From an uncultured Candidatus Saccharibacteria bacterium (lineage in GTDB: Bacteria > Patescibacteriota > Saccharimonadia > QS-5-54-17): DNA of 42,399 nt. Of this stretch, positions 2,237-35,942 are shown piece after piece (within the stretch, counting starts at the first letter, position 1; each line of letters opens with the position of its first letter). The stretch lies in assembly GCA_964415975.1 (NCBI GenBank), contig CAYQCN010000004.1, positions 1 through 42,399 of the forward strand, in the 5' to 3' direction. The translations under genes and the position numbers were made by a program. The notes under the pieces are model-generated. The model did not search any database. It was not told the DNA's origin and worked only from the letters and a program-made list of their open reading frames with translations.

Positions 2237-3619
2237 TAATAAACTGACGCTCACTACACCCACCATTAGCAAAAACAGCATAGCCCCCCATGTCATCAAG
2301 TACAGGCTTTGAGGTGTAATGTGACGAGCCATATAGACAAAATAGCCCAGCAACAGCCATAACACTGTCACTAGCAATGATATCAGGCCAACAAATACCA
2401 ATATTAGTGCCGATAGGGCTATCAGAAATAGAGGCAGCCATGGAAAGAGCGGGGCTCTAAAAGGCCTCTCAAGGTATGGCCGCTGCTTACGAAAACGAAG
2501 CAAAGATAGAGCAATCACAATCATTACTACAAGATATACAGTGCTGCTAATATACGCCACAAATGCTATCGAATTAGTCAAAAGCAAAAACACTGCTAAA
2601 ATCGCCACCGCCAACACAGAGCGGTGGGGAACATCATTGGCATTTAAAGGCGAGAAAGCTCTCTCAAAATAGCCCTGACGGCTAAGCGCATATATTCGCC
2701 TAGAAGAGACCAATGTAGAAGCCAGTAGCGACCCCATAGTAGCGATTAATGCTGCCGGCAATACCACATAAACACCCAAGCTGCCCAGCTGCTCAGCAGC
2801 TAACAGCAAAGGCGAGCCTGATCCAGCAATAGCATCAGCTCCAACTAGATTAACCGCTGTAAACGATACCGATACAAATAGAACCATGGCTGCCAATACA
2901 CTCAGCACCAAAGCACGCGGAATATTCTTTGCCGGCTCTTTAGCCTCTTCAGCAATTGAAGCTATATACTCATAGCCAATATAGGTGCTGAACACAACTG
3001 AAACAGCTGCCAATATTGGCAGAATCTCAAAAGGCATCTGAGAAGCAAACTCTCCAACACCAAAAGCAAACTCACGGCTACCAACACCTAGAGCTACGAA
3101 AGTAAGCAACAATAAAACCAAAACTGACACGATTAGCATCTCTGCCTTGCCGGTGCTGGTAATATTTCGCATATTAACCGCCACTGCTAAACCGATAGCT
3201 CCAAGAGCAATCAACATAGGGTTGATTGGAATGAACAGATTAGCATAAAAAGCCACCCCTAGAGCATTGATCGTCAAATAGCTAACATCACCAAGTAGTA
3301 CCAGCCAGGAGAACATAAATGGATAATATTTTTTTCGGGTAGTGTTAAAAACTAACTCAATACTCGACCCAGAACGAGGAATAGTAGTGCCTAGCTCGGC
3401 ATACAACAAAGACCCTAGCAAAGCTAGAACACCACCAACAATAAATGAAATCGGTAAATATTCACCGGCTATAGCTGCACCAGGACCGATAAGCACAAAT
3501 ATGCCACCACCTACTGTGCCACTCACCCCAATCACAGACAAGGCAAACAAGCCAAGACTACGATTGAGTTTATTTTTGGGTCGATTTACATACATAAGAT
3601 TTATCAAATAGTCTAACAC
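2228..3619 (-). CDS. Amino acid/polyamine/organocation (APC) superfamily permease
   Basis: 463-aa ORF with about 12 predicted TM segments. The N-terminal GLFALSVIGVSGTVGGGIFVLIGPGAAIAG motif is typical of APC transporters. The ORF opens with GTG; an internal ATG at 3595 is also possible. Confidence 0.85.
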   Translation of the reverse strand: MLDYLINLMYVNRPKNKLNRSLGLFALSVIGVSGTVGGGIFVLIGPGAAIAGEYLPISFIVGGVLALLGSLLYAELGTTIPRSGSSIELVFNTTRKKYYPFMFSWLVLLGDVSYLTINALGVAFYANLFIPINPMLIALGAIGLAVAVNMRNITSTGKAEMLIVSVLVLLLLTFVALGVGSREFAFGVGEFASQMPFEILPILAAVSVVFSTYIGYEYIASIAEEAKEPAKNIPRALVLSVLAAMVLFVSVSFTAVNLVGADAIAGSGSPLLLAAEQLGSLGVYVVLPAALIATMGSLLASTLVSSRRIYALSRQGYFERAFSPLNANDVPHRSVLAVAILAVFLLLTNSIAFVAYISSTVYLVVMIVIALSLLRFRKQRPYLERPFRAPLFPWLPLFLIALSALILVFVGLISLLVTVLWLLLGYFVYMARHITPQSLYLMTWGAMLFLLMVGVVSVSLLLL

Positions 3620-5732: not shown

Positions 5733-7406
5733 TTATTTGTGACTAGTGTCCATATATTTCATATGTAGCTTGCGAGAGCGTCTGAAATGATCGTGGGCAT
5801 CAAATCCATGACGTTTGAGCCGCCTAGATATCTCGATGCTGCCCAAGAAATGCGGCATCATCACATATGTGGCGCCCTTTTCGTAAAGCTCTCTAGCCTC
5901 ATCCTCTTCTTCAGCCTTAGCAATCACCAGGGTTTGTGGACTGCGATGTGCGATATGCGACACTACTACATTGTTTGTCTCAAAATCAGTAGCAGTAATA
6001 ATGACTGCCGAGGCGTCTTCTAGCGGCAAATCTTCCAAAAACTCGGCATCATTGGCATCACCATATTGAGCGTTAACTCCTTCTTGTCGCAACATATCCA
6101 CCACCTCCGGGTCATACTCGATTACAAGCATATCTTTACCCAACTTCTCTGCACTATCTAGCAAGCTTCTACTGCCCGACTTCAACCCAAACATTATCAC
6201 ATCATATTTATCTGATGTCTGCTGATCGCTACGGGCGTTACTCCGCTCGAATATTTTCAAGTAAGGAGCCAACCAATCGTAAAGTTTGTCAGAATAAATG
6301 ATCATATAAGTAGAGGTGGCGATAGTAATCATAGCCACCAAAGTCAGCATGGACACAATTTCATCGCCCACATAGCCGCCTTCTCGCACCAATAGTATCA
6401 ATATCAAAGAGAACTCGCTTATCTGAGAGACAGTGAGGCCGGCCTTGAAACCTATCTTTCTTGTAAAGTTAAGCAAGCCCATAATACTCATCACGATGAT
6501 TGGATTACCAATTAAAACTGCAGCAGATAGCAACAATGCTGGGCCGATATTATCACCCAATGCAGCCAAATCTAGCTCACTTCCCAAGACGATAAAGAAC
6601 AGCACTATAAAGAAGTCACGCAAAGGCCGCATCCTGGATGAAATCTCCGATGCATAAGGTGAATTAGCTAGAGCCACACCCGCAGCTAGAGCCCCAATCT
6701 CTATAGTAAAGCCGATGGCATAAGCTGCTGAGGCGACGCCAAACCCCCATCCAATCGCAAACAGAAACAAAAACTCCTGCGAGCGAGCCACGAAGTGTTC
6801 GAGCTTGGGCAACAAGAAGTGAGATAGCAAACCTATTACCACTATAAAGCCTAAACCGGCCAAAGCAGTCTGAGTTAATATAGTCGATATCTCTTGATCC
6901 TGAGCTAAAGCGGCAACCGCAATCAAGGCAGTCACTGCAACTATGTCTTGCACAAGCAGAAAGCCAATTGCCACTTTGCCATACAGACGATGGGTGTCTT
7001 TTTTGTCAGACAACAACTTCAAGATTATGATGGTGCTTGAAAAAGCCATGCCCAAAGCAATGAAGAAAGCCTCTACAGCTGAGAAGCCGAGCCAACTAGC
7101 CAGCAAAAAGCCGATACTGATCGTAAACAGTATCTGCCCCACGCCAGTCAATACAGCTATCTTACCTACTTCACGGATAATCTTTGGATTCAGGCCTAAT
7201 CCGATAATAAACAACAACAACGCAATCCCCATATGGGAAAATAGATCGACCACTTCGGTCGATTGGACCAAATCAAATACTGCCGGACCGACTAAAAGTC
7301 CGGTGATTATATGGCCGATGATGAGGGGCTGACGCAGTAACTGCATTATCGACGCAACGATGGTTGCGATGACAAGCAGAACGCTTACTTCTATAAATAC
7401 ATCCAT
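5733..7406 (-). CDS. CPA2-family cation:proton antiporter with a C-terminal RCK/TrkA-N-like domain (Kef-type)
   Basis: 557-aa ORF. The N-terminal roughly 380 aa are polytopic and Na+/H+-exchanger-like. The C-terminal soluble domain (YDVIMFGLKSGSRSL...VIITATD) resembles RCK_N but has a degenerate GxGxxG motif. Confidence 0.85.
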   Translation of the reverse strand: MDVFIEVSVLLVIATIVASIMQLLRQPLIIGHIITGLLVGPAVFDLVQSTEVVDLFSHMGIALLLFIIGLGLNPKIIREVGKIAVLTGVGQILFTISIGFLLASWLGFSAVEAFFIALGMAFSSTIIILKLLSDKKDTHRLYGKVAIGFLLVQDIVAVTALIAVAALAQDQEISTILTQTALAGLGFIVVIGLLSHFLLPKLEHFVARSQEFLFLFAIGWGFGVASAAYAIGFTIEIGALAAGVALANSPYASEISSRMRPLRDFFIVLFFIVLGSELDLAALGDNIGPALLLSAAVLIGNPIIVMSIMGLLNFTRKIGFKAGLTVSQISEFSLILILLVREGGYVGDEIVSMLTLVAMITIATSTYMIIYSDKLYDWLAPYLKIFERSNARSDQQTSDKYDVIMFGLKSGSRSLLDSAEKLGKDMLVIEYDPEVVDMLRQEGVNAQYGDANDAEFLEDLPLEDASAVIITATDFETNNVVVSHIAHRSPQTLVIAKAEEEDEARELYEKGATYVMMPHFLGSIEISRRLKRHGFDAHDHFRRSRKLHMKYMDTSHK

Positions 7407-7641: not shown

Positions 7642-7923
7642 CTACAATTGCCCCCTACTAGCAACTATCTGCCTAGAGCGTAATTTTACTAATTCATACT
7701 CTAAGACCGCCATTATGCTCAAATAAGCTAAACCGCTGCCACACAAACGCAGCAAGCCAACCCCCTCAAAGGCAAGCCCTATACCGGTTGCAACCTGCCA
7801 AAGCCCAGCCAGTGGTATGGATAGCAGTAGCCATTTATATGCAGTCTTTCTCCAGGCAGCCACTCCCCCAACTATTACTAGACCTAAACTTAAAGCCGCT
7901 CCTAATAAATGTAATGTAAGCAT
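7642..7923 (-). CDS. Small hypothetical membrane protein (3 TM helices)
   Basis: 93-aa ORF that is hydrophobic throughout. I recognised no family. Confidence 0.55.
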   Translation of the reverse strand: MLTLHLLGAALSLGLVIVGGVAAWRKTAYKWLLLSIPLAGLWQVATGIGLAFEGVGLLRLCGSGLAYLSIMAVLEYELVKLRSRQIVASRGQL

Positions 7924-8210
7924 CTCAATAATTTTGAATCTTAATCGCTTAAACTTATACGTCTAGTCTAACATCACCCAAAGAAATAGGCGCTAAACAA
8001 ATAATAAAAGTGACATAAAATGCCAAACAATATTATATGAAAGCGCCACGCACCTAGACTGTAAGTTAATCCAAAAAGAGTATTTCTAGGGTAGTTACAC
8101 TCGACAAACAAACTGATATAGCCTGCCAAAATAGAGCAAAATTGGTTTGGGCAAGGCCGGAGTCAGTAACTATACAAGCTCTAACACCAACTCCGGCGTT
8201 GCCACAACAC

Positions 8211-8357
8211 TCAACCTCTGCCGCAGCTAGGACAGGTGCCCTTGCCGCCACAAGGCGAACAGGTCTGAGCTCCTACGCCGAAATGGGATCCGACTTTGCC
8301 ATGCCCGCCGCAAGACTTGCAGCCGCCCTTGTTGTTGCATGTCGAGCAAACAGCCAA
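8211..8357 (-). CDS. 48-aa zinc-finger miniprotein with four CxxC motifs (DnaJ cysteine-rich-domain-like, CxxCxGxG)
   Basis: My own translation is (TTG)M-AVCSTCNNKGGCKSCGGHGKVGSHFGVGAQTCSPCGGKGTCPSCGRG-stop. An in-frame TGA lies 2 codons upstream of the TTG. The SD-like AGGCGGTGA matches 8 of 9 positions of AGGAGGTGA and sits 6 nt upstream of the TTG. The promoter is at 8403-8430. The ORF is absent from the supplied track, whose ORFs are all 60 aa or longer. Confidence 0.7.
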   Translation of the reverse strand: MAVCSTCNNKGGCKSCGGHGKVGSHFGVGAQTCSPCGGKGTCPSCGRG

Positions 8358-8402
8358 GGCTGTTCACCGCCTCTCTTTAGTCGATTGCAAGGTGCCACTT
8401 TA

Positions 8403-8430
8403 TTTATACAACAATTAGCAAAATTGGCAA
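8403..8430 (-). promoter_or_regulatory. Candidate promoter of the zinc-finger miniprotein gene: TTGCCA-N16-TATAAA (or TGtATAAAT extended -10)
   Basis: The hexamers were read on the minus strand. The -10 ends about 45 nt upstream of the TTG start, in an AT-rich stretch immediately before the GC-rich coding block. Confidence 0.55.
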
Positions 8431-8628
8431 TAGTAGATAAGTCTGGATAATTAAAAATAAGCGCTCAGAAGCACAGGAGGTGGGATGAACCTAGCTTAAA
8501 GTTGTAAGACTTGTAAAAAGTTGAAGCACAGCTCTGAGTTTATAATTTATGTCTTTTAACTTTTAGCTTTACAACTAACATCTCAAACCTAAAACCTAAA
8601 ACATAGAACTTGAATCTACACCCCTCGC

Positions 8629-8669
8629 TCTCGCTGTCAAGGTCCGACCTTGACAGCGGCTTGGTGAAG
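8629..8669 (-). repeat. REP-like palindromic intergenic element, copy 2 (core 8633-8657), inverted relative to copies 1 and 3
   Basis: The reverse complement reads CTTCACCAAGCCGCTGTCAAGGTCGGACCTTGACAGCGAGA, matching the copy 1 and copy 3 consensus. It begins 35 nt downstream of the stop of the 2-hydroxyacid dehydrogenase gene. Confidence 0.8.
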
Positions 8670-8691: not shown

Positions 8692-9696
8692 TTATCTTAC
8701 GACATTTTGTGGTTCGTGCATGAGATATTTCTTGATATTCTCAGCAGTAGTATGCCTAATCCGTTGCAAGGCTTCTTTGCTGTTAAAGGCGTTGTGGGGG
8801 GTGATCAATACATTCGGCATGCGTAGCAACACATTGTGCTCAGCACTCATGACCAAATCTTTGGTGCTAGCGTCTGGATGAAGTAGCGCTACTTCTTCGT
8901 CAAACCGCAGCAACTGCTCTCCTTCTAGAGTGTCCAGACCGGCTGCCGCTATCTGGCCTGAATACAGGCCATCGATCAAAGCTTGAGCCTCGATTAGTTC
9001 GCCTCTAGCCGTGTTGATAATTACAACCCCTTTACGCATCTTGGCAATAGCCTCAGCGTTTATCATGTGATAATTATCACTATTAGACGGAGCATGCAGA
9101 CTCACAATGTGACTCCGCTCATAAAGTTCGTCTAACTCTACGAATTCAACTATACCGCTGCCGCGAGGCTTAGGGTCATATGCCACTACATTCATACCTA
9201 TCGCATCAGCTATTCTAGCTACATGCTCGCCTATGCGGCCCAAACCAATCAACCCCATTGTCTTACCCTCTAGATCAAAACCGGTAATCTCTTCATGATC
9301 TATTAACCTATCATTGACTTGTTGCATACTTTCACGAAGTCGCCTGGCAAGACTCATCAGCAGCATTATCGTAAACTCCGCCACTGTCGCCTCTCCATAC
9401 TCTGGCACGGTGCTGACTAAGACATGGTTGGCTTTGGCCGTTTTCATGTCTATATGGTCATAGCCGGTTGAGCGAGTCGCTATCATCTCTAGATTGGGCA
9501 GATAACTCAGGCATTTTTGGTTCACATCCGATGTGATAAATACCGATGCTATATCGACATCGCTGTATCTTTTGGCAGTCACCTGAGTTAAAGATTCCTC
9601 AGTGCAAACCACCTCTGCCTCGAACACGTTTTTAAATGTACGCTTAAAATAACGCTTTTCATCTCCATGAACATCAAAGAAAACAATTTTTCGCAT
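8692..9696 (-). CDS. D-isomer-specific 2-hydroxyacid dehydrogenase (D-lactate/glycerate dehydrogenase-like), NAD-binding
   Basis: 334-aa ORF with a GLIGLGRIGEHVA Rossmann motif. The catalytic region shows the family pattern VSLHAPSN...INTARG...D...E...ITPH. Substrate specificity cannot be determined from the sequence. Confidence 0.85.
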   Translation of the reverse strand: MRKIVFFDVHGDEKRYFKRTFKNVFEAEVVCTEESLTQVTAKRYSDVDIASVFITSDVNQKCLSYLPNLEMIATRSTGYDHIDMKTAKANHVLVSTVPEYGEATVAEFTIMLLMSLARRLRESMQQVNDRLIDHEEITGFDLEGKTMGLIGLGRIGEHVARIADAIGMNVVAYDPKPRGSGIVEFVELDELYERSHIVSLHAPSNSDNYHMINAEAIAKMRKGVVIINTARGELIEAQALIDGLYSGQIAAAGLDTLEGEQLLRFDEEVALLHPDASTKDLVMSAEHNVLLRMPNVLITPHNAFNSKEALQRIRHTTAENIKKYLMHEPQNVVR

Positions 9697-9768: not shown

Positions 9769-10050
9769 CTAACGATATGACACATCAACATGGCTTATCA
9801 ATGCCAGCAAATCCTGTATAAAAGGCTCCTCTCTCTGGAGTTGATAGCACGTTCTCTGGCCGAAGCGCTCTCTCCTCACTACCCCTGCAAGTTCAAGCTT
9901 TTTCATATGCTGGGATACAGCCGGCTTCGAAAGCGACACGGCCTCGGCGAGCTCACCAACGCTAATATTTTCATACTGCTCCAATAAAAGTACCAGATTA
10001 AGCCTATTTCTATCGGCCAAGCTTTGAAATATATGCTGGAGTTCAATCAT
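9769..10050 (-). CDS. ArsR/SmtB-family winged-helix transcriptional regulator without the alpha3 metal-binding Cys motif
   Basis: It contains LADRNRLNLVLLLEQ...ISVGELAEAVSLSKPAVSQHMKKLELAGVV. The longest ORF extends to a GTG at 10101; I prefer ATG 10050 (MIELQHIF...) because it gives the usual family length. The start is uncertain. Confidence 0.75.
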   Translation of the reverse strand: MIELQHIFQSLADRNRLNLVLLLEQYENISVGELAEAVSLSKPAVSQHMKKLELAGVVRRERFGQRTCYQLQREEPFIQDLLALISHVDVSYR

Positions 10051-10134
10051 AATTAAGTAGTTGCTTATATGCTTAATAATAAACCATATTCGACCCAACA
10101 CCTCAATACAAAAACCAGGACACTGTGTGGAAAA

Positions 10135-24023: not shown

Positions 24024-26681
24024 TCAGCGCAAATATGGCAACTTGTCGTTTTTCCAGTCACGAAACTTCTCAAGACCCAAGTAGTAATACGGAAAGGTTA
24101 GCAGAACGAGAATTGTACTTGATATTAATCCAAATACTATAGTTGCCGCCAAAGGCTCCCAAAATGGATCGGTCAAAAGCAAGGGCAAGAGAGCCCCTAT
24201 AGTCGTCAGAGTGGTGGTGACTACCGGTCTAAATCTTTGCTCAACAGCACTAGATATGGCCTCCACTCTACTCTTGCCGCTACGGCGTTCTTGATTGGCA
24301 TAGTCAAGCAACAATATAGCGTTATTGACTACTATACCAAAGAGACCCACCAGTCCAACCATTACAAAGAAGCTTAAAGGATTGTCTGTTATCAACAAGC
24401 CACTAAAGACACCGAACAGACTCAAAGGTATAGCAACAAATATAAGCAATGGCTGCAAGAAAGAATTAAATTGCAACAACAACAAGATATACATCAGCAA
24501 CAAGGCTACTCCTAATGCCAGCTGAACACCCTCAAATGACTCAACATTCTGGTCTTCTTGGCCAAGATCAAAACTAATAGCAGACTCATCAAGGCCTCTG
24601 TCGTCTAGCTCTTCGCCATCAAAGCGATCATTTATAAAATCCTGGGCAGCCATAATCGCAGTGGACGTATCTTCATCGCCCAGCCTCAAAGAGACAGATA
24701 GGAACCTGTCACCGTCTTTGCGGCGAATGTCTTCAGGGTCTAGGTCTCTTTGCACTTCCTCGACCACTACGCTACCACCGTCTGGTCGCTCGATTGTCTC
24801 TGACTCTAAGACACTAGCCACATCCTCGCCCAACTCAGCAACCGCGTCCATATCCTCGCCGTAAAACTCAACCGTAAAAGGGAAATCATCTGGAGGTGGT
24901 CCTGCGTCTAGCTGCCTGATGAGTACATCTGCCCTGTCTTCGGCTAGCTCATCTAAAGAATCGCTTAGCTGAGCAATATACTCTTGTGATGTTGTGTCTC
25001 GATCTCTAAATGGCGTCAAGTCGACCTGAGCAAAAGCCGACCGCTCACTTGCCTCATAATAAGTAGCTGAATGTAAATCCTGGCCTATAGCGCCCTTAAT
25101 CTCCTGATTGATTTCATCGACTAATTCTATAGCCTCGTCTATATCGGTCCCGCTGGCAAAATCGATATTGACTATTATTGCATCAGCATCATCAGACTCT
25201 GGAAATATATTGAAGGGCACCTGGCTAGCCAATACACCGGCTAGACCGACAACACCCAAGCTGACAAGCACCATCAAAGAGGCTACCATCTTGCCCAGAC
25301 GAGGCTTGGCAACCAGCAAACGAGGCAGATTTCCTATTGCTCTCTGAGACACCTCTATAGGTCTCTTTAACCAGCCGCCACTTTTCTTAGCTCGAAGCAA
25401 CACTATAGCGGCAAGAAATGGCACCAAAACAATCGCAACAGTCAGAGACAGTAGCAGAGCCAAGATTACCGTAGATGGCAATACTCGGATAAATTCACCC
25501 AATATACCGCTAACGAAAAGTAGCGGTGCAAAAACCAATACAGTAGTAAGCGTACCGGCAATCATGGCAGTGCCTACTTTAGAAAGAGCACTTTCTATTT
25601 GCTTGCGCACACTTTTGCCATTACGGCGCGCTACATCTAGAGCCTCTGTTACCACTGTGGCATTATCTACTATGAGACCGAGAGTTAGTACCAAGGCAAA
25701 AAGGACTATCACATTAAGCGTGTAGCCGAGCAGATATATACCCAATAAAGTACTGAGCATCACAGTCGGTATAAACAAAGACACCAAAAGTGCCGGGCGC
25801 CAACCAATCAAAAGCCCAACTACCAACAGCACTGCCAACAATCCATTGCCGATGCTCGTCTGCAGCTCACTTATTTGTGTGCGAATAATATCAGCAAAAC
25901 CGGCTGAGACTACTGCCTCCACCTCATCATCTCGACTCTCATTCCAGTCTGCTATCTCATCATTTACAGCTTCATCCAGGTCTAGATCATCAACACCGGA
26001 AGCGGCCTCCACGCCGACTAAAGCGCTGTTGTAAAAGTCGATATCATTTTCGCTATCTTTTACTGCTACACGTGAAAAGGAGGTTTGGCGAATTTCAGTC
26101 TGGCCGGTTATAGGGTCTTGCGCTTCAGCAGTCAAAGCAATCCCGTCACTAGACCTTACCTCGTCTACACGGCCAAGTGATTCGGCCAAATCATCTGCCG
26201 CCGACTCTAGATCGTCTAACGTAGAATCGTTTACTACATAGACCGCCGCTAATAGGTCGTATTGATTGTTGAATTGATTGGCAGATATAGACTCGACTTC
26301 ATATTCGACACCATTAACAGACTCAAAATTATCGTCTATCTCACTTCTAGCTAGCGCGGCCCCCTCTGATGAGTTCGTACCCTGCTCGAACTCGACAAAA
26401 AGACTAAAACTATCATTGCGGGCAGTAGACTGGACACTGACTACCTCATCTATATCGACCAATATCTCAGACATCTGTTGAGCTACATCAGCATCTACCA
26501 ATTCGGCATCATCTACGAAGTAAGTGCCAGTAACTACTGCTATCGGCACCTCGACCGGAGGAAATCCCTCTCTGTCTAGCAGGCTAAGGTAGCTAAAAGC
26601 ACCAAACAACAACACGCCTAGCCACACGACTAGCGTGACCCTATATCTCGACAGAGCCTTTAAGCTTAATTTTGCAATCAC
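24024..26681 (-). CDS. RND-superfamily efflux transporter permease (AcrB/HAE-like) with acidic extracytoplasmic loops
   Basis: It has the 12-TM RND layout. The N-terminus reads (GTG)IAKLSLKALSRYRVTLVVWLGVLLFG...FPPVEVP, and GLIVDNATVV appears in TM4. I moved the start from the track's 26879 to the in-frame GTG at 26681, because the extension overlaps the divergent gene and promoter and has no RND homology pattern. TATAAT (26693-26688) lies 6 nt upstream. Confidence 0.85.
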   Translation of the reverse strand: MIAKLSLKALSRYRVTLVVWLGVLLFGAFSYLSLLDREGFPPVEVPIAVVTGTYFVDDAELVDADVAQQMSEILVDIDEVVSVQSTARNDSFSLFVEFEQGTNSSEGAALARSEIDDNFESVNGVEYEVESISANQFNNQYDLLAAVYVVNDSTLDDLESAADDLAESLGRVDEVRSSDGIALTAEAQDPITGQTEIRQTSFSRVAVKDSENDIDFYNSALVGVEAASGVDDLDLDEAVNDEIADWNESRDDEVEAVVSAGFADIIRTQISELQTSIGNGLLAVLLVVGLLIGWRPALLVSLFIPTVMLSTLLGIYLLGYTLNVIVLFALVLTLGLIVDNATVVTEALDVARRNGKSVRKQIESALSKVGTAMIAGTLTTVLVFAPLLFVSGILGEFIRVLPSTVILALLLSLTVAIVLVPFLAAIVLLRAKKSGGWLKRPIEVSQRAIGNLPRLLVAKPRLGKMVASLMVLVSLGVVGLAGVLASQVPFNIFPESDDADAIIVNIDFASGTDIDEAIELVDEINQEIKGAIGQDLHSATYYEASERSAFAQVDLTPFRDRDTTSQEYIAQLSDSLDELAEDRADVLIRQLDAGPPPDDFPFTVEFYGEDMDAVAELGEDVASVLESETIERPDGGSVVVEEVQRDLDPEDIRRKDGDRFLSVSLRLGDEDTSTAIMAAQDFINDRFDGEELDDRGLDESAISFDLGQEDQNVESFEGVQLALGVALLLMYILLLLQFNSFLQPLLIFVAIPLSLFGVFSGLLITDNPLSFFVMVGLVGLFGIVVNNAILLLDYANQERRSGKSRVEAISSAVEQRFRPVVTTTLTTIGALLPLLLTDPFWEPLAATIVFGLISSTILVLLTFPYYYLGLEKFRDWKNDKLPYLR

Positions 26682-26710
26682 CGTTTCATTATACTCTAGC
26701 CCGCGTAAAT

Positions 26711-26761
26711 AAATAAACACCCCAAGGGCGTGATATAATATATTAATAAATACACCCCAAG
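26711..26761 (+). promoter_or_regulatory. Two direct repeats AATAAA(T)ACACCCCAAG flanking an extended -10 (TGaTATAAT, 26731-26739) in the RND / beta-helix-protein divergent region
   Basis: Repeat A is at 26711-26726 and repeat B at 26745-26761, differing by one inserted T. The SD AGGAGG (26764-26769) precedes the ATG at 26773/26776. Confidence 0.5.
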
Positions 26762-26772
26762 TAAGGAGGTAG

Positions 26773-27927
26773 ATGATGAAACATATTGGCTTAGTAATAG
26801 CTGCCATATTACTGCTAGTGGGCGGACTTGGCCTAAGCCGGGTAGATGCAGCCGAATACATAACTGATGAGGTAGCCACAATCGAAGCCGACGAGACAGT
26901 AGAAGATGACCTCTATATAGCCGCTAGTACAGTCAGGATTGAAGGTGTAGTAAAAGGCGATGTATACACAGCTGGATCACAGATTGCAGTCAACGGCACC
27001 ATAGAGGGTGATCTGTTCGCAGCAGCCAACACCATAACTATCAACGGCGAGGTTGAAGGTGGTGTGCGCGTAGCAAGCGCCACACTTGATATGTCAAGCG
27101 CGCAAATTGGCGGTGGTGTAACCCACTTTGGGGCTTCATTTAGCAGCAGCTCAGATACCAATATAGGCAATGGGCTTTTAGTATTTGGCGAGACAGCGAC
27201 AATAGATGGAGCCATAGCAAACGGCCTGACCGCATTTGCCGACAAAGTCACCTTGCTTGGCAGCATCGGCACCGAGACCAAAGTCACATCTACCGAGCTT
27301 AATATCGGCGAGTCCGCTCTTATCAGCGCCGACATAACACACCGGTCAGACCGCGACGCTGAAATAGCTGATGGGGCTGTTATCGATGGTGAACTGATTC
27401 AAAAAGTAGCGCCCGAAAGAGCAGGCCTAGATGCGACCACCATAAAATACAGCTTTTTAGCTTGGAGCTTTCTATCGGTCTTGTTAGCGGGCTTCGTCCT
27501 GCTATGGGTTGGTCGCAACCCATTGCATAGGTCGGCAGAAATGGCCACTACAAGACCTTTGGCTTCTTTTGGTAGCGGCATCCTTGGTCTAATTCTAGTC
27601 GGACCCGTAGCCACGCTGCTAGCTTTCACAATAATCGGCATACCCTTGGCTATACTGCTGTGGGTGGCCGCTCTTGTCGGAGTGTTCTTAAGCACACTAG
27701 TAAGCGCAGTTGCCCTAGGGCGAACAATTCTATCGCGTACTAACCCTAAGCACAGACCTAAGCTTTACGGTAGTTTCGCAATAGGCCTATTAGTTATATA
27801 CACCCTATACATAATACCTATTATAAACGTACTAGTAGCACTAGCTGTTGTTGCTGGCGGATTCGGCTCTTTGCTTTTACATGCAGTGCACAGCATAAGA
27901 AGACAGCACACTACCAAAAAAAGTTAA
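26773..27927 (+). CDS. Exported beta-helix-repeat (bactofilin-like repeat) protein with a C-terminal polytopic membrane domain
   Basis: It has the signal peptide MMKHIGLVIAAILLLVGGLGLSRVDA. Repeated I/V-x-G-x-V-x-GD units follow (IEGVVKGDVYTAGSQIAVNGTIEGDLFAAANTITINGEVEGGV...), and then about 4 TM helices. Confidence 0.6.
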   Translation: MMKHIGLVIAAILLLVGGLGLSRVDAAEYITDEVATIEADETVEDDLYIAASTVRIEGVVKGDVYTAGSQIAVNGTIEGDLFAAANTITINGEVEGGVRVASATLDMSSAQIGGGVTHFGASFSSSSDTNIGNGLLVFGETATIDGAIANGLTAFADKVTLLGSIGTETKVTSTELNIGESALISADITHRSDRDAEIADGAVIDGELIQKVAPERAGLDATTIKYSFLAWSFLSVLLAGFVLLWVGRNPLHRSAEMATTRPLASFGSGILGLILVGPVATLLAFTIIGIPLAILLWVAALVGVFLSTLVSAVALGRTILSRTNPKHRPKLYGSFAIGLLVIYTLYIIPIINVLVALAVVAGGFGSLLLHAVHSIRRQHTTKKS

Positions 27928-33426: not shown

Positions 33427-35448
33427 TCAAACTTTTACTCTACGCAACATTTGAGCATTAATAGCCACAACCACTGTACTGGCCGACATCAACACTGCCC
33501 CGACTGCAGGAGTAAGCAAAACACCCCAAGCTGCCAGTACTCCAGCCGCTAAGGGAATGGCCACGATATTATATCCAGCCGCCAGCCACAGGTTTTGCAC
33601 CATTTTCCGGTACGTCGCACGAGAAAGAGTAAAAATCCGAGCAATATCGCGAGGATCAGACTGTACAAGCACAATATCTCCAGCTTCAACCGCCACATCA
33701 GTTCCGGCGCCAATAGCAACTCCGACATCTGCAGTCGCCAGCGCCGGAGCGTCGTTAACACCATCACCTACCATAGCCACCCTTTTACCTTGTTTTTGCA
33801 GTTCTTTAATCTTGGAAGCCTTATCTTCTGGCAGTACTTGAGCAAAGACTGTATCGATATCAAGCTGATCTGCCACCGATTGAGCGACTGCTGATGTATC
33901 TCCGGTCAACATTGCTATCTCTAGACCTTTATCATGCAAGTCTTCTATGGCAGCCCTGGCCTCCTCGCGAATTGCATCAGCCACTACAAACACAGCCACT
34001 ACCTGACTTTTACGTAGCAAATAGATTGCCGACTGGCCACTTTCCGCCGCCTTATTAGTAACTACTTGTAGCTTGTCTGGCACAGATACCTGATCGGACT
34101 CTATTAATGCTGGGCCACCAATCTTATATTCAACTCCATCTACAGTTGCGACCACTCCTTTTCCAGATATGGATTTAAACTTCTCGGGCCTACTAATAGT
34201 AATCTGCCGCTCTTGGGCTGTCTTAACAATACCCTCAGCTATAGGGTGCTCTGACTCTGACTCTACGCTAGCTGCCATCTTCAGAGCCTCGTCTGCATCT
34301 ACTGCATCTGTAGCAACAAGGTCAACTACCCTAAACTCTCCTAAGGTCAAGGTTCCGGTCTTGTCAAAAACTACCACATCGAGTTCACGCGCCTGCTCAA
34401 GACCTCTTCTGTCGCGCACCAACAGGCCATTGCGAGCGCCTAAAGTGGTTGAAATCGATACCACTAATGGAATCGCTAAGCCCAGTGCATGCGGGCAAGC
34501 AATCACGAGCACCGTCACTACCCGCACTATCGAAAAGTCTATAGGAGCTCCTGTTAGCTGCCAGCCAATGAAGGTAAGAGTTGCTGCCGTAAGTGCGACA
34601 ACCGTCAATAGCCGAGCAGCTCGATCGGCCAGATGTTGCACTCGAGACTTAGAGGCTTGGGCTTCTGCTACAAGTCTCATAATTCCTGACAATTTAGTGT
34701 CATCACCCGTGCCGGTCACTTTTACGCGGAGCGACCCTTCGCCATTAATAGTCCCAGCTATCACCTCGTCACCTATTTGCTTGGCGACTGGGCGCGACTC
34801 GCCAGTAATCATTGCCTCGTTGATATAACTATCCCCACTGTCAATCAGCCCATCGGCCGGAATGCTCTCACCAGGTCGAATCAAAACTATATCAGCCAGC
34901 TTAAGCTCATCGACCGACACCCTCTCTTCCCCGCCACCAAATAGGCGAGTAGCAGTATCAGGCAACAGCTCGGCTAATTCCTGCAAGGCTCCTTGTGCTT
35001 GATCGATGGAGCGCATCTCTATCCAGTGTCCAAGCAACATAATTGTCACCAGAGTAGCCAGCTCCCACCATAGTGCCTCAGCTTCAATCGCCCCAATCTG
35101 TACAGCCCAAGAAAACACAAAAGCCACACTAATAGCTAGGGCAATAAGTGTCATCATTCCAGGCAAGCGGCCTTTTATTTCATGCCATGCACTCTTAACG
35201 AAAACCCATCCACCATAGACAAATACAACTGTACCGAGCAGTGGGCCAATCCATTCAGAGCCATCAAACACTGGCGCCTCATATCCAAGTAACTCCTGAA
35301 CATGAACGGACCAATACACAACCGGCAGTGTCAAGATCAGCGACAACCAAAACCGGCTACGAAACATTTCCGGGCTGTGGCCTTCATGGTTGTCGTGACC
35401 ATCTTGATGACTATGTGCGCTATCAGGCTGCGAGTTATGGCAGTGCAT
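33427..35448 (-). CDS. copB: Copper-translocating P1B-type ATPase, CopB-like (CPH motif, His-rich N-terminus)
   Basis: It contains the His-rich tail MHCHNSQPDSAHSHQDGHDNHEGH, TGES, the TM6 motif ACPHALGLAIP, DKTGTLT, and MLTGD/GDGVNDAPAL. Its ATG shares one nucleotide with the upstream regulator stop (TAATG). Confidence 0.92.
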   Translation of the reverse strand: MHCHNSQPDSAHSHQDGHDNHEGHSPEMFRSRFWLSLILTLPVVYWSVHVQELLGYEAPVFDGSEWIGPLLGTVVFVYGGWVFVKSAWHEIKGRLPGMMTLIALAISVAFVFSWAVQIGAIEAEALWWELATLVTIMLLGHWIEMRSIDQAQGALQELAELLPDTATRLFGGGEERVSVDELKLADIVLIRPGESIPADGLIDSGDSYINEAMITGESRPVAKQIGDEVIAGTINGEGSLRVKVTGTGDDTKLSGIMRLVAEAQASKSRVQHLADRAARLLTVVALTAATLTFIGWQLTGAPIDFSIVRVVTVLVIACPHALGLAIPLVVSISTTLGARNGLLVRDRRGLEQARELDVVVFDKTGTLTLGEFRVVDLVATDAVDADEALKMAASVESESEHPIAEGIVKTAQERQITISRPEKFKSISGKGVVATVDGVEYKIGGPALIESDQVSVPDKLQVVTNKAAESGQSAIYLLRKSQVVAVFVVADAIREEARAAIEDLHDKGLEIAMLTGDTSAVAQSVADQLDIDTVFAQVLPEDKASKIKELQKQGKRVAMVGDGVNDAPALATADVGVAIGAGTDVAVEAGDIVLVQSDPRDIARIFTLSRATYRKMVQNLWLAAGYNIVAIPLAAGVLAAWGVLLTPAVGAVLMSASTVVVAINAQMLRRVKV

Positions 35449-35942
35449 TACTGGTTCTTTCTATTGTTTTTTAAATATTTTCCTAGGTTATTGCTAAACT
35501 GTTGCATACATCCACTTCCGCAAAAATAATACTCCTCGCCCTCATACTGATAACTATCTGCCACTTCAGTTAAGGCCAGCCGCATACCGCAGACCAGGTC
35601 AACAACTAGCGGATACAGGGTTTCTTTGTCGGTGTCTAATACATCGCTATCAAGATAATTATGATCAAGCAAAAAAGCCCGCACCAAACGGCAAGCTTGG
35701 GCAATCCTCGGATCTTTGAGTTGGTAATATATCTCATGCCCATCTCGCCTAGTAGCGACTATGCCTGAACCTCGCAAAACGGCTAGATGCTGAGAGGTGT
35801 TAGTCTGAGATATGCCAAGCATATCGGCCATAGACTTTACCGGTAACTCCTCATGAGTTAAAAGCTGCACAATTTCAAGCCGTTTTTGGCTAGCCAACGT
35901 TTTAAAAACCGCTTCTTGCTGACGAAATGCTGATTGATACAT
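35448..35942 (-). CDS. ArsR/SmtB-type winged-helix repressor fused to a C-terminal YHS/TRASH metal-binding domain
   Basis: The N-terminus is LASQKRLEIVQLL...VKSMADMLGISQTNTSQHLAVLRGSGIV. The C-terminus DLVCGMRLALTEVADSYQYEGEEYYFCGSGCMQQF matches the YHS pattern (CGM...Y.G..YYFCS..C...F). Confidence 0.85.
   Translation of the reverse strand: MYQSAFRQQEAVFKTLASQKRLEIVQLLTHEELPVKSMADMLGISQTNTSQHLAVLRGSGIVATRRDGHEIYYQLKDPRIAQACRLVRAFLLDHNYLDSDVLDTDKETLYPLVVDLVCGMRLALTEVADSYQYEGEEYYFCGSGCMQQFSNNLGKYLKNNRKNQ

What the first reader, a model, noticed from the sequence alone, without database searches (positions are those of the whole stretch)
8211..8430. Unannotated 48-codon gene encoding a stand-alone four-CxxC (DnaJ cysteine-rich-domain-like) zinc-finger miniprotein
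Seen in sequence: the minus-strand frame from TTG 8357 to TGA 8211 translates to MAVCSTCNNKGGCKSCGGHGKVGSHFGVGAQTCSPCGGKGTCPSCGRG. This gives four CxxC motifs, CSTCNNKG, CKSCGGHG, CSPCGGKG and CPSCGRG; the last three also fit the CxxCxGxG spacing of the DnaJ zinc-finger domain (the first has Asn where that pattern requires Gly). An in-frame stop lies 2 codons upstream of the TTG. An SD-like AGGCGGTGA sits 6 nt upstream, and TTGCCA-N16-TATAAA lies about 45 nt upstream. An 8-bp GC-rich inverted repeat (8156-8163 and 8190-8197) followed by T-runs lies downstream. The coding block is a visibly GC-rich island inside very AT-rich non-coding DNA. The two track ORFs that cover it (8066-8251 minus, 8142-8450 plus) have no comparable features. 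Established knowledge: DnaJ-type zinc-finger modules can act as independent small proteins. Examples are the 53-aa Bacillus anti-TRAP protein, which inhibits TRAP, and plant BSD2-type assembly factors. Inference: this may be a zinc-dependent protein-binding regulator, anti-factor or holdase that automatic annotation misses because of its size and TTG start.
Basis: partly seen in the sequence, partly recalled or inferred. Interest (0 to 1): 0.7.

Follow-up and report, generated by a model that had tools for sequence, protein, structure and literature searches.

The report
Unannotated eight-cysteine miniprotein gene in Saccharimonadales
The 48-codon reading frame is a real, conserved but never-annotated gene of an uncultured Saccharimonadales-type (candidate phyla radiation) bacterium; it encodes a small positively charged protein with eight invariant cysteines that most likely holds zinc, and its cellular role is still unknown.

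Summary
The ORF 8211-8357(-) recurs at the same place in four diverged relatives. It is 47-48 codons long in each, always has a TTG or GTG start, and keeps all eight Cys. pN/pS is 0.19-0.40 in all ten pairs, and 44 of 46 third codon positions vary against 22 and 19 for the first two.

A promoter-like element, a 45-nt leader, a strong Shine-Dalgarno site and a downstream stem-loop are conserved around the ORF, while the surrounding spacer is unalignable.

The family is absent from a library of 1.84 billion representative predicted proteins, matches no Pfam or NCBIfam model, and was missed or mis-framed by every gene caller.

The only similarity found is sub-significant, to the second zinc centre of the DnaJ cysteine-rich domain (hhalign probability 81%; PDB profile E=0.11). 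The DnaJ and anti-TRAP Pfam models do not match.

The gene always sits next to a roughly 90-aa predicted three-helix membrane protein, and the two are present or absent together. Both evolve several-fold faster than their neighbours, and one allele is a recombinant mosaic.

Best reading: a new, lineage-restricted, stand-alone double Cys4 zinc-knuckle miniprotein that binds an unidentified partner.

The parts
8211..8357 (-). Coding sequence of the 48-aa eight-Cys miniprotein (TTG start, TGA stop included). Layout: C4xxC7-x5-C13xxC16-x16-C33xxC36-x5-C42xxC45.
   Evidence: Conserved in L046, L044/L045, L056 and L057. pN/pS is 0.19-0.40 in all ten pairs with no stops. Variable columns by codon position are 22/19/44 of 46, chi-square p=3.7e-8.
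8364..8375 (-). Shine-Dalgarno region GAGAGGCGGTGA, 6 nt before the start codon. Its TGA is an in-frame stop that fixes the N-terminus.
   Evidence: GAGAGG and GGTGA are invariant in all five loci. This is the only exact match in the window.
8376..8400 (-). Conserved 5' leader containing GCACCTTGCAATCGA. It could pair with the Shine-Dalgarno region.
   Evidence: Conserved columns in alignment A4. The leader is 98% identical between the window and L056, where the flanking genes are about 87% identical. The predicted pairing shows only one-sided changes and a weak energy.
8402..8430 (-). Promoter-like element: TTGCCA (-35), 16-nt spacer, TATAAAT (-10) preceded by TTG.
   Evidence: The TTG of the -35 hexamer and most of the block TTGTATAAAT are conserved across the five loci, inside otherwise unalignable spacer. 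Not listed by the consensus scanner.
8145..8208 (-). Stem-loop starting a few bases after the stop codon, followed by short T runs. Probable transcript end or stabiliser.
   Evidence: 19-nt arms, 84% complementary. The stem GCGCCGGAGT/ACTCCGGCGC is kept in 4 of 5 loci, and 4 pairs show two-sided changes.
7642..7923 (-). Co-inherited neighbour gene: a 93-aa predicted three-helix membrane protein with no known family.
   Evidence: Present downstream of the peptide in all five peptide-bearing lineages. Absent, together with the peptide, from L047/48, L049, L051/52 and L058-60. No Pfam, NCBIfam or PADLOC family. AF2 gives three helices at pLDDT 63.5.

Best explanation
**What it is (shown).** 8211-8357(-) is a small gene under purifying selection, with its own conserved promoter-like and ribosome-binding signals (consistent with separate transcription). 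It belongs to a Saccharimonadales-type genome (candidate phyla radiation, CPR).

**How the protein is built (inferred).** The 48-aa, net-positive product is two tandem copies of a double knuckle (CxxC-x5-CxxC) joined by a 12-16 residue hairpin. The eight invariant cysteines, with invariant glycines and prolines around them, most likely form two tetrahedral Cys4 metal sites. Zinc is the default metal. The symmetric 5/16/5 spacing, and the resemblance of motif 2-hairpin-motif 3 to zinc centre II of the DnaJ cysteine-rich domain, suggest a nested arrangement: motifs 2+3 hold one metal and motifs 1+4 hold the other.

**What it does (inferred, least certain).** The metal scaffold would display a variable, basic surface made of the xx positions and the hairpin. 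That surface would bind a macromolecular partner, either protein or nucleic acid.

**Genomic setting (shown).** The gene is one half of a two-gene accessory cassette, paired with a roughly 90-aa three-helix membrane protein. The cassette occupies a variable slot between a 2-hydroxyacid dehydrogenase gene and a Kef-like CPA2 antiporter gene. It evolves much faster than its surroundings.

In kind, this is a stand-alone zinc-finger micro-protein. It is not a detectable member of the DnaJ or anti-TRAP families.
For: **Gene status**
- Five distinct alleles at the syntenic position, all 47-48 codons.
- Twenty-three invariant columns, including all eight Cys.
- pN/pS of 0.19-0.40 in the ORF frame, against 1-3 in the overlapping frames.
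- Third-position bias with p=3.7e-8.
- Conserved -35/-10, leader, SD and start-codon position, embedded in unalignable spacer.
- Conserved downstream stem-loop.

**Metal scaffold**
- Cys, Gly and Pro are invariant, whereas His19 and His25 are not.
- The window's other proteins contain only 0.3% Cys.

**DnaJ-like centre**
- The best PDB profile hit is 1exk, the DnaJ cysteine-rich domain, at E=0.11, aligned over motif 2-hairpin-motif 3.
- hhalign gives 81% probability and a pairwise E of 1.2e-5.

**Cassette**
- The peptide and the membrane-protein gene occur together in 5 of 5 lineages and are absent together in relatives whose dehydrogenase is 70% identical or less.

**Cytoplasmic location**
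- The first Cys is residue 4, so there is no room for a signal or leader peptide.
- No exporter or peptide-modifying enzyme was identified among the window ORFs scanned.

**Organism**
- The closest named dehydrogenase homologues are Saccharimonadales / Saccharibacteria.
Against: - No metal binding was measured.
[quoted passage not shown] A stoichiometry of two is therefore an assumption.
- The DnaJ similarity is below significance, and the Pfam DnaJ_CXXCXGXG model does not match.
- The AF2 single-sequence model is uninformative, with pLDDT 50.
- A sequential pairing (motifs 1+2 and 3+4), or iron instead of zinc, is not excluded.
- There is no expression data.
- All alleles come from a few metagenome assemblies, several from the same sample.
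- The partner is unidentified. The cytoplasmic loops of the neighbouring membrane protein are themselves basic, which does not favour a simple electrostatic complex with a basic peptide (my reading).
Confidence: 0.6

Rival explanations
1. Conflict or interaction cassette. The basic Cys-rich peptide is a leaderless toxin or effector (bacteriocin-like or defensin-like), and the adjacent small three-helix membrane protein is its immunity or handling partner.
For: - The two-gene layout, a small peptide followed by a small membrane protein, shows presence/absence polymorphism.
- Both genes evolve 4-10 times faster at non-synonymous sites than the flanking genes.
- The peptide tree is discordant with the flanks, and the window and L056 alleles differ as a mosaic.
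- Net charge is +2 to +7.
- Several alleles coexist in one sample.
Against: - No signal peptide, double-glycine leader, C39 peptidase or dedicated ABC exporter was identified among the ORFs scanned. An AcrB-type RND transporter lies about 16 kb away at 24024-26879.
- The four CxxC pairs with invariant Gly follow the geometry of metal knuckles, not of disulfide-rich toxins.
- pN/pS stays below 0.4, so positive selection is not shown.
- No PADLOC family matches.
Confidence: 0.12
2. Metal buffer or sensor: a metallothionein-like or rubredoxin-like peptide. It would store or shuttle Zn, Cu, Cd or Fe, or sense thiol-reactive stress, possibly in connection with the neighbouring ArsR/SmtB-type regulator or the Kef-like CPA2 K+ system.
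For: - The peptide is 17% Cys in a proteome sample with 0.3% Cys.
- CxxCG knuckles also occur in rubredoxins.
- An ArsR/SmtB-family regulator lies two genes upstream, and a KefC/KefB-like CPA2 antiporter lies downstream.
Against: - There is no match to the bacterial metallothionein or rubredoxin Pfam models, or to their PDB chains.
- There are no CxC clusters.
- Non-ligand Gly, Pro, Thr, Asn, Gln and Arg are invariant, as in structural zinc fingers.
- The ArsR, dehydrogenase and CPA2 genes persist unchanged in relatives that lack the peptide.
Confidence: 0.12
3. Regulatory leader peptide. Translation of a Cys/Gly-rich short ORF, followed by a stem-loop, would control transcription of the downstream membrane-protein gene in response to Cys- or Gly-tRNA supply (attenuation).
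For: - A short ORF with 8 Cys and 10-13 Gly codons is followed within a few bases by a conserved stem-loop, upstream of a co-oriented gene.
Against: - Purifying selection acts on many non-Cys residues, and on the exact length and spacing.
- The gap to the next gene is about 290 nt, and it contains a separate conserved block upstream of that gene.
- No alternative antiterminator pairing was found.
- The downstream gene is unrelated to Cys or Gly metabolism.
Confidence: 0.04
4. Not a gene: a chance ORF in a GC-rich non-coding element, or a non-coding RNA.
For: - No gene caller predicts it.
- The start codon is not ATG.
- RNA folding is slightly better than for shuffled sequence (z=-1.7).
Against: - Codon-position pattern, pN/pS, conserved length and invariant Cys.
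- None of 100 shuffles gives four CxxC motifs.
- No Rfam family matches.
Confidence: 0.03

Closest known systems
Cysteine-rich (zinc-finger) domain of DnaJ/Hsp40 (Pfam DnaJ_CXXCXGXG; PDB 1exk)
   Same: - Four CxxC pairs; motifs 2 and 3 are exact CxxCxGxG.
- Motif 2-hairpin-motif 3 aligns with zinc centre II of E. coli DnaJ: CxxCxGxGxV...QTCxxCxGxGT.
- The symmetric spacing is compatible with the same nested two-zinc hairpin.
   Different: - Stand-alone 48 aa, with no J domain, G/F region or C-terminal domains.
- Spacers are 5/16/5 instead of about 13/18/10.
- Motif 1 has Asn in place of the first Gly, and motif 4 ends in CxR.
- The Pfam model does not match, and the PDB profile E-value of 0.11 is not significant.
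C(P)XCG zinc-finger micro-proteins of haloarchaea (HVO_2753, HVO_0758, Brz)
   Same: - Proteins under 70 aa built almost only of CxxCG-type knuckles, overlooked by annotation and with diverse regulatory roles.
- HVO_2753 has four such motifs in one small protein (PMC11241148; PMC2253796).
   Different: - No detectable sequence similarity; HVO_2753 (PDB 6YDH) is not among the PDB hits.
- Bacterial (CPR) rather than archaeal.
- Much more Gly-rich and compact.
[quoted passage not shown]
Bacillus anti-TRAP (RtpA)
   Same: A small (53 aa) stand-alone protein with a DnaJ-like CxxC...CxxCxGxG zinc site that acts by binding another protein.
   Different: - It has one Cys4 site rather than two, and a C-terminal helix for trimer and dodecamer assembly.
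- hhalign probability is only 12%, and there is no Pfam match.
- The genomic context is different.
Cysimiditide RiPP precursors (two CXXCXGXG motifs binding Zn)
   Same: Short peptides whose CXXCXGXG motifs bind zinc and resemble DnaJ and anti-TRAP (bioRxiv 10.1101/2024.10.02.616296).
   Different: - Cysimiditides need an Asp between the motifs and an adjacent methyltransferase.
- Here there is no invariant Asp and no methyltransferase nearby.

Membership tests
DnaJ cysteine-rich domain (Pfam DnaJ_CXXCXGXG) | Significant match to the family HMM | tested here: not met
   No hit for any of the five members, even at E<=10.
DnaJ cysteine-rich domain (Pfam DnaJ_CXXCXGXG) | Four repeats of CxxCxGxG | tested here: not met
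   Motifs 2 and 3 fit in all five members. Motif 1 is CxTCxNxG and motif 4 is CPxCxR.
DnaJ cysteine-rich domain (Pfam DnaJ_CXXCXGXG) | Profile or structural similarity to a solved DnaJ cysteine-rich domain | tested here: inconclusive
   1exk is the best PDB profile hit, but at E=0.11. hhalign gives 81% probability over 30 columns, covering zinc centre II only. The AF2 model is too poor for a fold search.
DnaJ cysteine-rich domain (Pfam DnaJ_CXXCXGXG) | Two Zn(Cys)4 centres formed by motifs 1+4 and 2+3 | not testable with these tools
   Needs metal analysis and an NMR or crystal structure.
Anti-TRAP | Match to the Anti-TRAP model or sequence; single Cys4 site plus an oligomerisation helix | tested here: not met
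   No Pfam hit. hhalign probability is 12%. The peptide has eight Cys and no helical tail.
C(P)XCG zinc-finger micro-proteins (a motif class, not a homologous family) | [quoted passage not shown] | tested here: met
   The window peptide has CKSCG, CSPCG and CPSCG. Every allele has at least two CxxCG motifs, and some motifs end in N or K instead of G.
C(P)XCG zinc-finger micro-proteins (a motif class, not a homologous family) | Sequence homology to characterised members (HVO_2753 / 6YDH, HVO_0758) | tested here: not met
   They are not among the PDB hits at E<=10 with either the sequence or the profile. No NCBIfam hit.
Bacterial metallothionein (SmtA/BmtA) | Match to the family model or PDB chains; CxC/CxxC clusters with bridging thiolates | tested here: not met
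   No Pfam or PDB hit. There are no CxC motifs.
Rubredoxin | Two CxxCG knuckles about 30 residues apart around an aromatic core; match to the family model | tested here: not met
   No Pfam or PDB hit. The peptide has only one aromatic residue, and it is not invariant.
RiPP or bacteriocin precursor | Leader or signal peptide, and a neighbouring modification or export gene | tested here: not met
   The first Cys is residue 4. The neighbours are a dehydrogenase, an ArsR regulator, a small membrane protein and a CPA2 antiporter. The rest of the window has no C39, ABC-export or RiPP enzymes.

The most novel reading that the evidence does not exclude
The peptide and the three-helix membrane protein form a rapidly diversifying, recombining interaction cassette of an epibiotic CPR bacterium. 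One form would be a leaderless, basic, metal-stabilised effector or toxin with its membrane immunity or receptor partner, used against hosts or competing strains. This would be a previously unseen class of conflict module built on a DnaJ-like double zinc knuckle.
Probability: 0.12. Interest if true: 0.75.

Novelty: new variant of a known kind. Interest (0 to 1): 0.45.

Why it matters
- **A blind spot in protein catalogues.** A strongly constrained gene with clear expression signals is missing from catalogues of billions of predicted proteins. It is under 50 codons, starts with TTG or GTG, and is overlapped by longer spurious frames.
- **A lead in reduced genomes.** Candidate phyla radiation (CPR) bacteria such as Saccharibacteria have very small genomes with many unknown genes. 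A conserved, cysteine-expensive micro-protein paired with a membrane protein, and evolving by allele replacement among co-occurring strains, is a concrete and easily synthesised target. It could help in studying how these epibionts regulate themselves or interact with others.
- **A structural question.** It is a minimal (48 aa) version of the DnaJ-type double zinc centre. That makes it useful for asking how small such a fold can be, and whether both predicted sites really bind metal.

Tried and rejected
**Searches for homologues**
- Word-indexed protein search with the peptide: no candidates.
- phmmer against 1.84 billion representative proteins: no hits at E<=1e-3.
- Exact-sequence look-up: not on record.
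- Metagenome scan with the single peptide: nothing.
Its three 'relatives' (L053-L055) are false positives, an SPCGGKGTCGKC 2Fe-2S-type motif inside 500-aa proteins. Real members in that collection may therefore have been missed.
- Genome-collection scan with the neighbouring dehydrogenase: only relatives at 44% identity or less, with no synteny information.

**Family and structure searches**
- Pfam gave only sub-threshold hits, to DUF7895 (5 of 5 members, best E=0.026) and DUF5351 (3 of 5, best E=0.01). No literature exists on either.
- NCBIfam and PADLOC: nothing.
- Rfam: nothing at gathering thresholds, and one chance miRNA hit on the stem-loop at E=0.49.
- AF2 on the single sequence gave pLDDT 50.
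- AF2 of the membrane partner gave three helices at pLDDT 63.5, too weak for a fold search.

**Readings rejected**
- A DnaJ pseudogene fragment. The in-frame stop inside the SD, and the stop codon, are conserved, and the flanks are non-coding in all five loci.
- An N-terminal extension, for the same reason.
- His as a metal ligand. His19 and His25 are not invariant.

Full report
**1. Observation**

The minus-strand ORF 8211-8357 starts at TTG and encodes MAVCSTCNNKGGCKSCGGHGKVGSHFGVGAQTCSPCGGKGTCPSCGRG, exactly as reported.
- An in-frame TGA lies two codons before the start, inside the Shine-Dalgarno (SD) sequence.
- GAGAGGCGGTGA lies 6 nt upstream of the start.
- TTGCCA-N16-TATAAA lies about 45 nt upstream.
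- An inverted repeat follows the stop codon. It extends to 19-nt arms at 8145-8163 and 8190-8208.

GC is 0.57-0.60 over the ORF and 0.29-0.40 in the flanks. Amino-acid composition explains most of this (GC2 0.71). GC3 is 0.63, against a mean of 0.45 for the window's genes.

The pattern is not a chance product. This is the only stop-free segment in the window with three or more CxxC motifs within 50 residues, and none of 100 dinucleotide shuffles gave four. The other proteins encoded in the window contain only 0.3% Cys.

**2. Organism and neighbourhood**

Genes around the ORF, all on the minus strand:

| Window coordinates | Product |
|---|---|
| 9769-10101 | ArsR/SmtB-type regulator |
| 8692-9696 | 2-hydroxyacid dehydrogenase |
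| 8211-8357 | the peptide |
| 7642-7923 | 93-aa membrane protein with no family |
| 5733-7406 | KefB/KefC-like CPA2 antiporter with a TrkA_N domain |

The dehydrogenase has a graded series of homologues. The named ones are Candidatus Saccharimonadales / Saccharibacteria. The window therefore comes from an uncultured CPR (Patescibacteria) bacterium.

An identical contig exists in ENA assembly ERZ27266004. No gene is called there between the dehydrogenase and the 93-aa gene.

**3. Is it a gene?**

Contigs carrying homologues of the dehydrogenase or of the 93-aa protein gave four further alleles at the same position:

| Locus | Coordinates | Start codon | Length |
|---|---|---|---|
| L046 | 1992-2135 | GTG | 47 aa |
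| L044 / L045 | 6085-6231 | GTG | 48 aa |
| L056 | 3274-3420 | TTG | 48 aa |
| L057 | 154-300 | TTG | 48 aa |

- **Conserved residues.** All eight Cys are invariant, as are V3, T6, N9, G11, G12, G18, G20, G27, Q31, P35, G38, G40, P43 and R47. His19 and His25 are not invariant.
- **Selection in the ORF frame.** pN/pS is 0.19-0.40 in all ten pairs, and there are no stops.
The antisense frame that forms the 102-aa plus-strand ORF, and the +1 frame, give pN/pS of about 1-3.
- **Codon-position bias.** Variable columns number 22, 19 and 44 of 46 for codon positions 1, 2 and 3 (p=3.7e-8).

In the DNA alignment the surrounding spacer cannot be aligned. The -35 TTG, the block TTGTATAAAT, a leader containing GCAC(C/T)T..CAAT(C/T)GA, the SD GAGAGG(C/T)GGTGA and the position of the start codon are conserved. 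A stem GCGCCGGAGT/ACTCCGGCGC follows the stop in four of five loci, and some of its pairs change on both sides.

No pipeline predicted it. It is absent from the exact-sequence index, from the word-indexed search and from 1.84 billion representative proteins. In L056 the caller instead chose a 114-aa ORF in the wrong frame.

**4. What kind of protein?**

The layout is C4xxC7-x5-C13xxC16-x16-C33xxC36-x5-C42xxC45. The two halves (CSTCNNKGGCKSCGGHG and CSPCGGKGTCPSCGRG) align without gaps, so the peptide is an internal duplication of a double knuckle. This is my reading.

Family searches gave no membership:
- **Pfam.** No DnaJ_CXXCXGXG, Anti-TRAP, rubredoxin or metallothionein match for any member. 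There are only sub-threshold hits to two DUFs.
- **NCBIfam and PADLOC.** Nothing.
- **PDB with the five-sequence profile.** The best hit is the E. coli DnaJ cysteine-rich domain, 1exk, at E=0.11. It aligns over motif 2-hairpin-motif 3: CxxCxGxGxV..QTCxxCxGxGT.
- **hhalign.** Against the E. coli DnaJ domain, entered from memory and consistent with the 1exk alignment, the probability is 81%. Against anti-TRAP it is 12%.

So the peptide works like, and may be distantly derived from, zinc centre II of DnaJ. It fails the membership tests.

The symmetric 5/5 spacers fit a nested hairpin, with motifs 1+4 and 2+3 each holding one metal. A sequential arrangement is not excluded.

As a class, the closest known things are the stand-alone C(P)XCG zinc-finger micro-proteins of haloarchaea. 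[quoted passage not shown] That is a caution against assuming two metals here.

AF2 without an alignment gave pLDDT 50.

**5. Context and evolution**

- **Cassette.** The peptide is always followed, 257-327 nt downstream, by the roughly 90-aa membrane-protein gene. AF2 predicts three helices for it at low confidence.
- **Joint presence and absence.** Both genes are absent from relatives whose dehydrogenase is 70% identical or less. There the slot is empty (L047/48) or holds a Na+/H+ exchanger gene (L049, L051/52, L058-60). This was confirmed with a profile search of six-frame translations of all 62 sequences held.
- **Neighbours persist.** The ArsR, dehydrogenase and CPA2 genes remain in those relatives, so the peptide is not an obligate part of their function.
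- **Rate.** The cassette evolves fast. For the window against L056, the flanking genes have pN of 0.019-0.026 (96% amino-acid identity), while the peptide has pN of 0.215 (71% identity). Against L057, CPA2 has pN 0.044, the peptide 0.20 and the membrane protein 0.17.
- **Discordant tree.** L046 has more distant flanks but the closest peptide.
- **Mosaic allele.** Between the window and L056, the leader and codons 1-13 are 95-98% identical, while codons 14-47 are 58% identical. The flanking genes are about 87% identical. This indicates recombinational allele replacement.
- **Charge.** All alleles carry a net positive charge of +2 to +7.

**6. Mechanism**

Shown:
- A translated-looking gene under purifying selection, with its own conserved promoter-like and ribosome-binding signals.
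- An invariant eight-Cys/Gly/Pro scaffold.
- A variable, basic remainder of the sequence.
- Linkage to a small membrane protein.

Inferred:
- The cysteines form two Cys4 zinc sites.
- The scaffold presents a variable surface that binds a partner, protein or nucleic acid.

Rivals:
- **A leaderless toxin or effector with an immunity partner.** The cassette's dynamics favour this. The knuckle geometry and the absence of any export or modification gene count against it.
- **A metal buffer or redox peptide.** Cys content and nearby metal- and ion-related genes favour this. The failed family tests, and the persistence of those neighbours without the peptide, count against it.
- **A Cys/Gly-sensing leader peptide.** Selection on non-Cys residues counts against it.
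- **A non-gene.** Contradicted by the comparative data.

**7. Verdict**

- Gene status and a metal-knuckle nature are supported.
- DnaJ or anti-TRAP membership is not.
- The function is untested.

It is a new, lineage-restricted sequence family of a known kind (stand-alone zinc-finger micro-proteins). Its unusual points are the compact layout, the fixed membrane-protein neighbour and the mosaic evolution. Interest is moderate.

Noticed in passing
window 8211-8402 compared with L056 3229-3420: Mosaic allele. The leader and codons 1-13 are 95-98% identical, while codons 14-47 are only 58% identical. The flanking genes are about 87% nt / 96% aa identical. This implies a recombination breakpoint inside the 48-codon gene.
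   Followed up: partly
L046 2442-2717: The membrane-protein gene next to the peptide carries an in-frame TAG where all other alleles have the invariant Gln43 codon (CAG). The rest of the frame is intact. This could be a recent nonsense mutation, a population variant or an assembly error.
   Followed up: no
L056 3173-3517: The gene caller annotated a 114-aa ORF in a different frame across the peptide gene. This is an example of a spurious long frame masking the true short one.
   Followed up: yes
window 8376-8400 (-) and 8364-8375 (-): The conserved leader segment GCACCUU resembles the 16S anti-SD sequence and could pair with the Shine-Dalgarno region, masking it. Only one-sided changes are seen and the energy is weak at -5 kcal/mol.
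   Followed up: partly
window, all long ORFs: The proteins encoded in the window contain only about 0.3% cysteine, which is unusually low.
   Followed up: no
window 8632-8658: A perfect 13-nt palindrome (CGCTGTCAAGGTC / GACCTTGACAGCG) lies just downstream of the dehydrogenase stop codon (8692-8694), with no T run. A terminator-like hairpin with a T run lies further on at 8461-8474(-).
   Followed up: no
window 33427-35942 (-): A separate metal module: an ArsR-type regulator fused to a YHS domain (35448-35942), directly upstream of a P-type ATPase (33427-35448).
   Followed up: no
L053 933-1019, L054 5001-5051, L055 1561-1611: The C-terminal half of the peptide (SPCGGKGTC..C) mimics the N-terminal SPCGGKGTCGKC cysteine motif of large (about 500 aa) proteins in metagenomes. 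This saturated the pattern-based metagenome scan with false positives.
   Followed up: yes
L049 6307-7464, L051 4921-6090, L058 5062-6252: In more distant relatives, the slot between the dehydrogenase and the CPA2 antiporter holds an extra Na+/H+ exchanger gene, in either orientation, instead of the peptide/membrane-protein cassette. The slot is a variable insertion site.
   Followed up: partly
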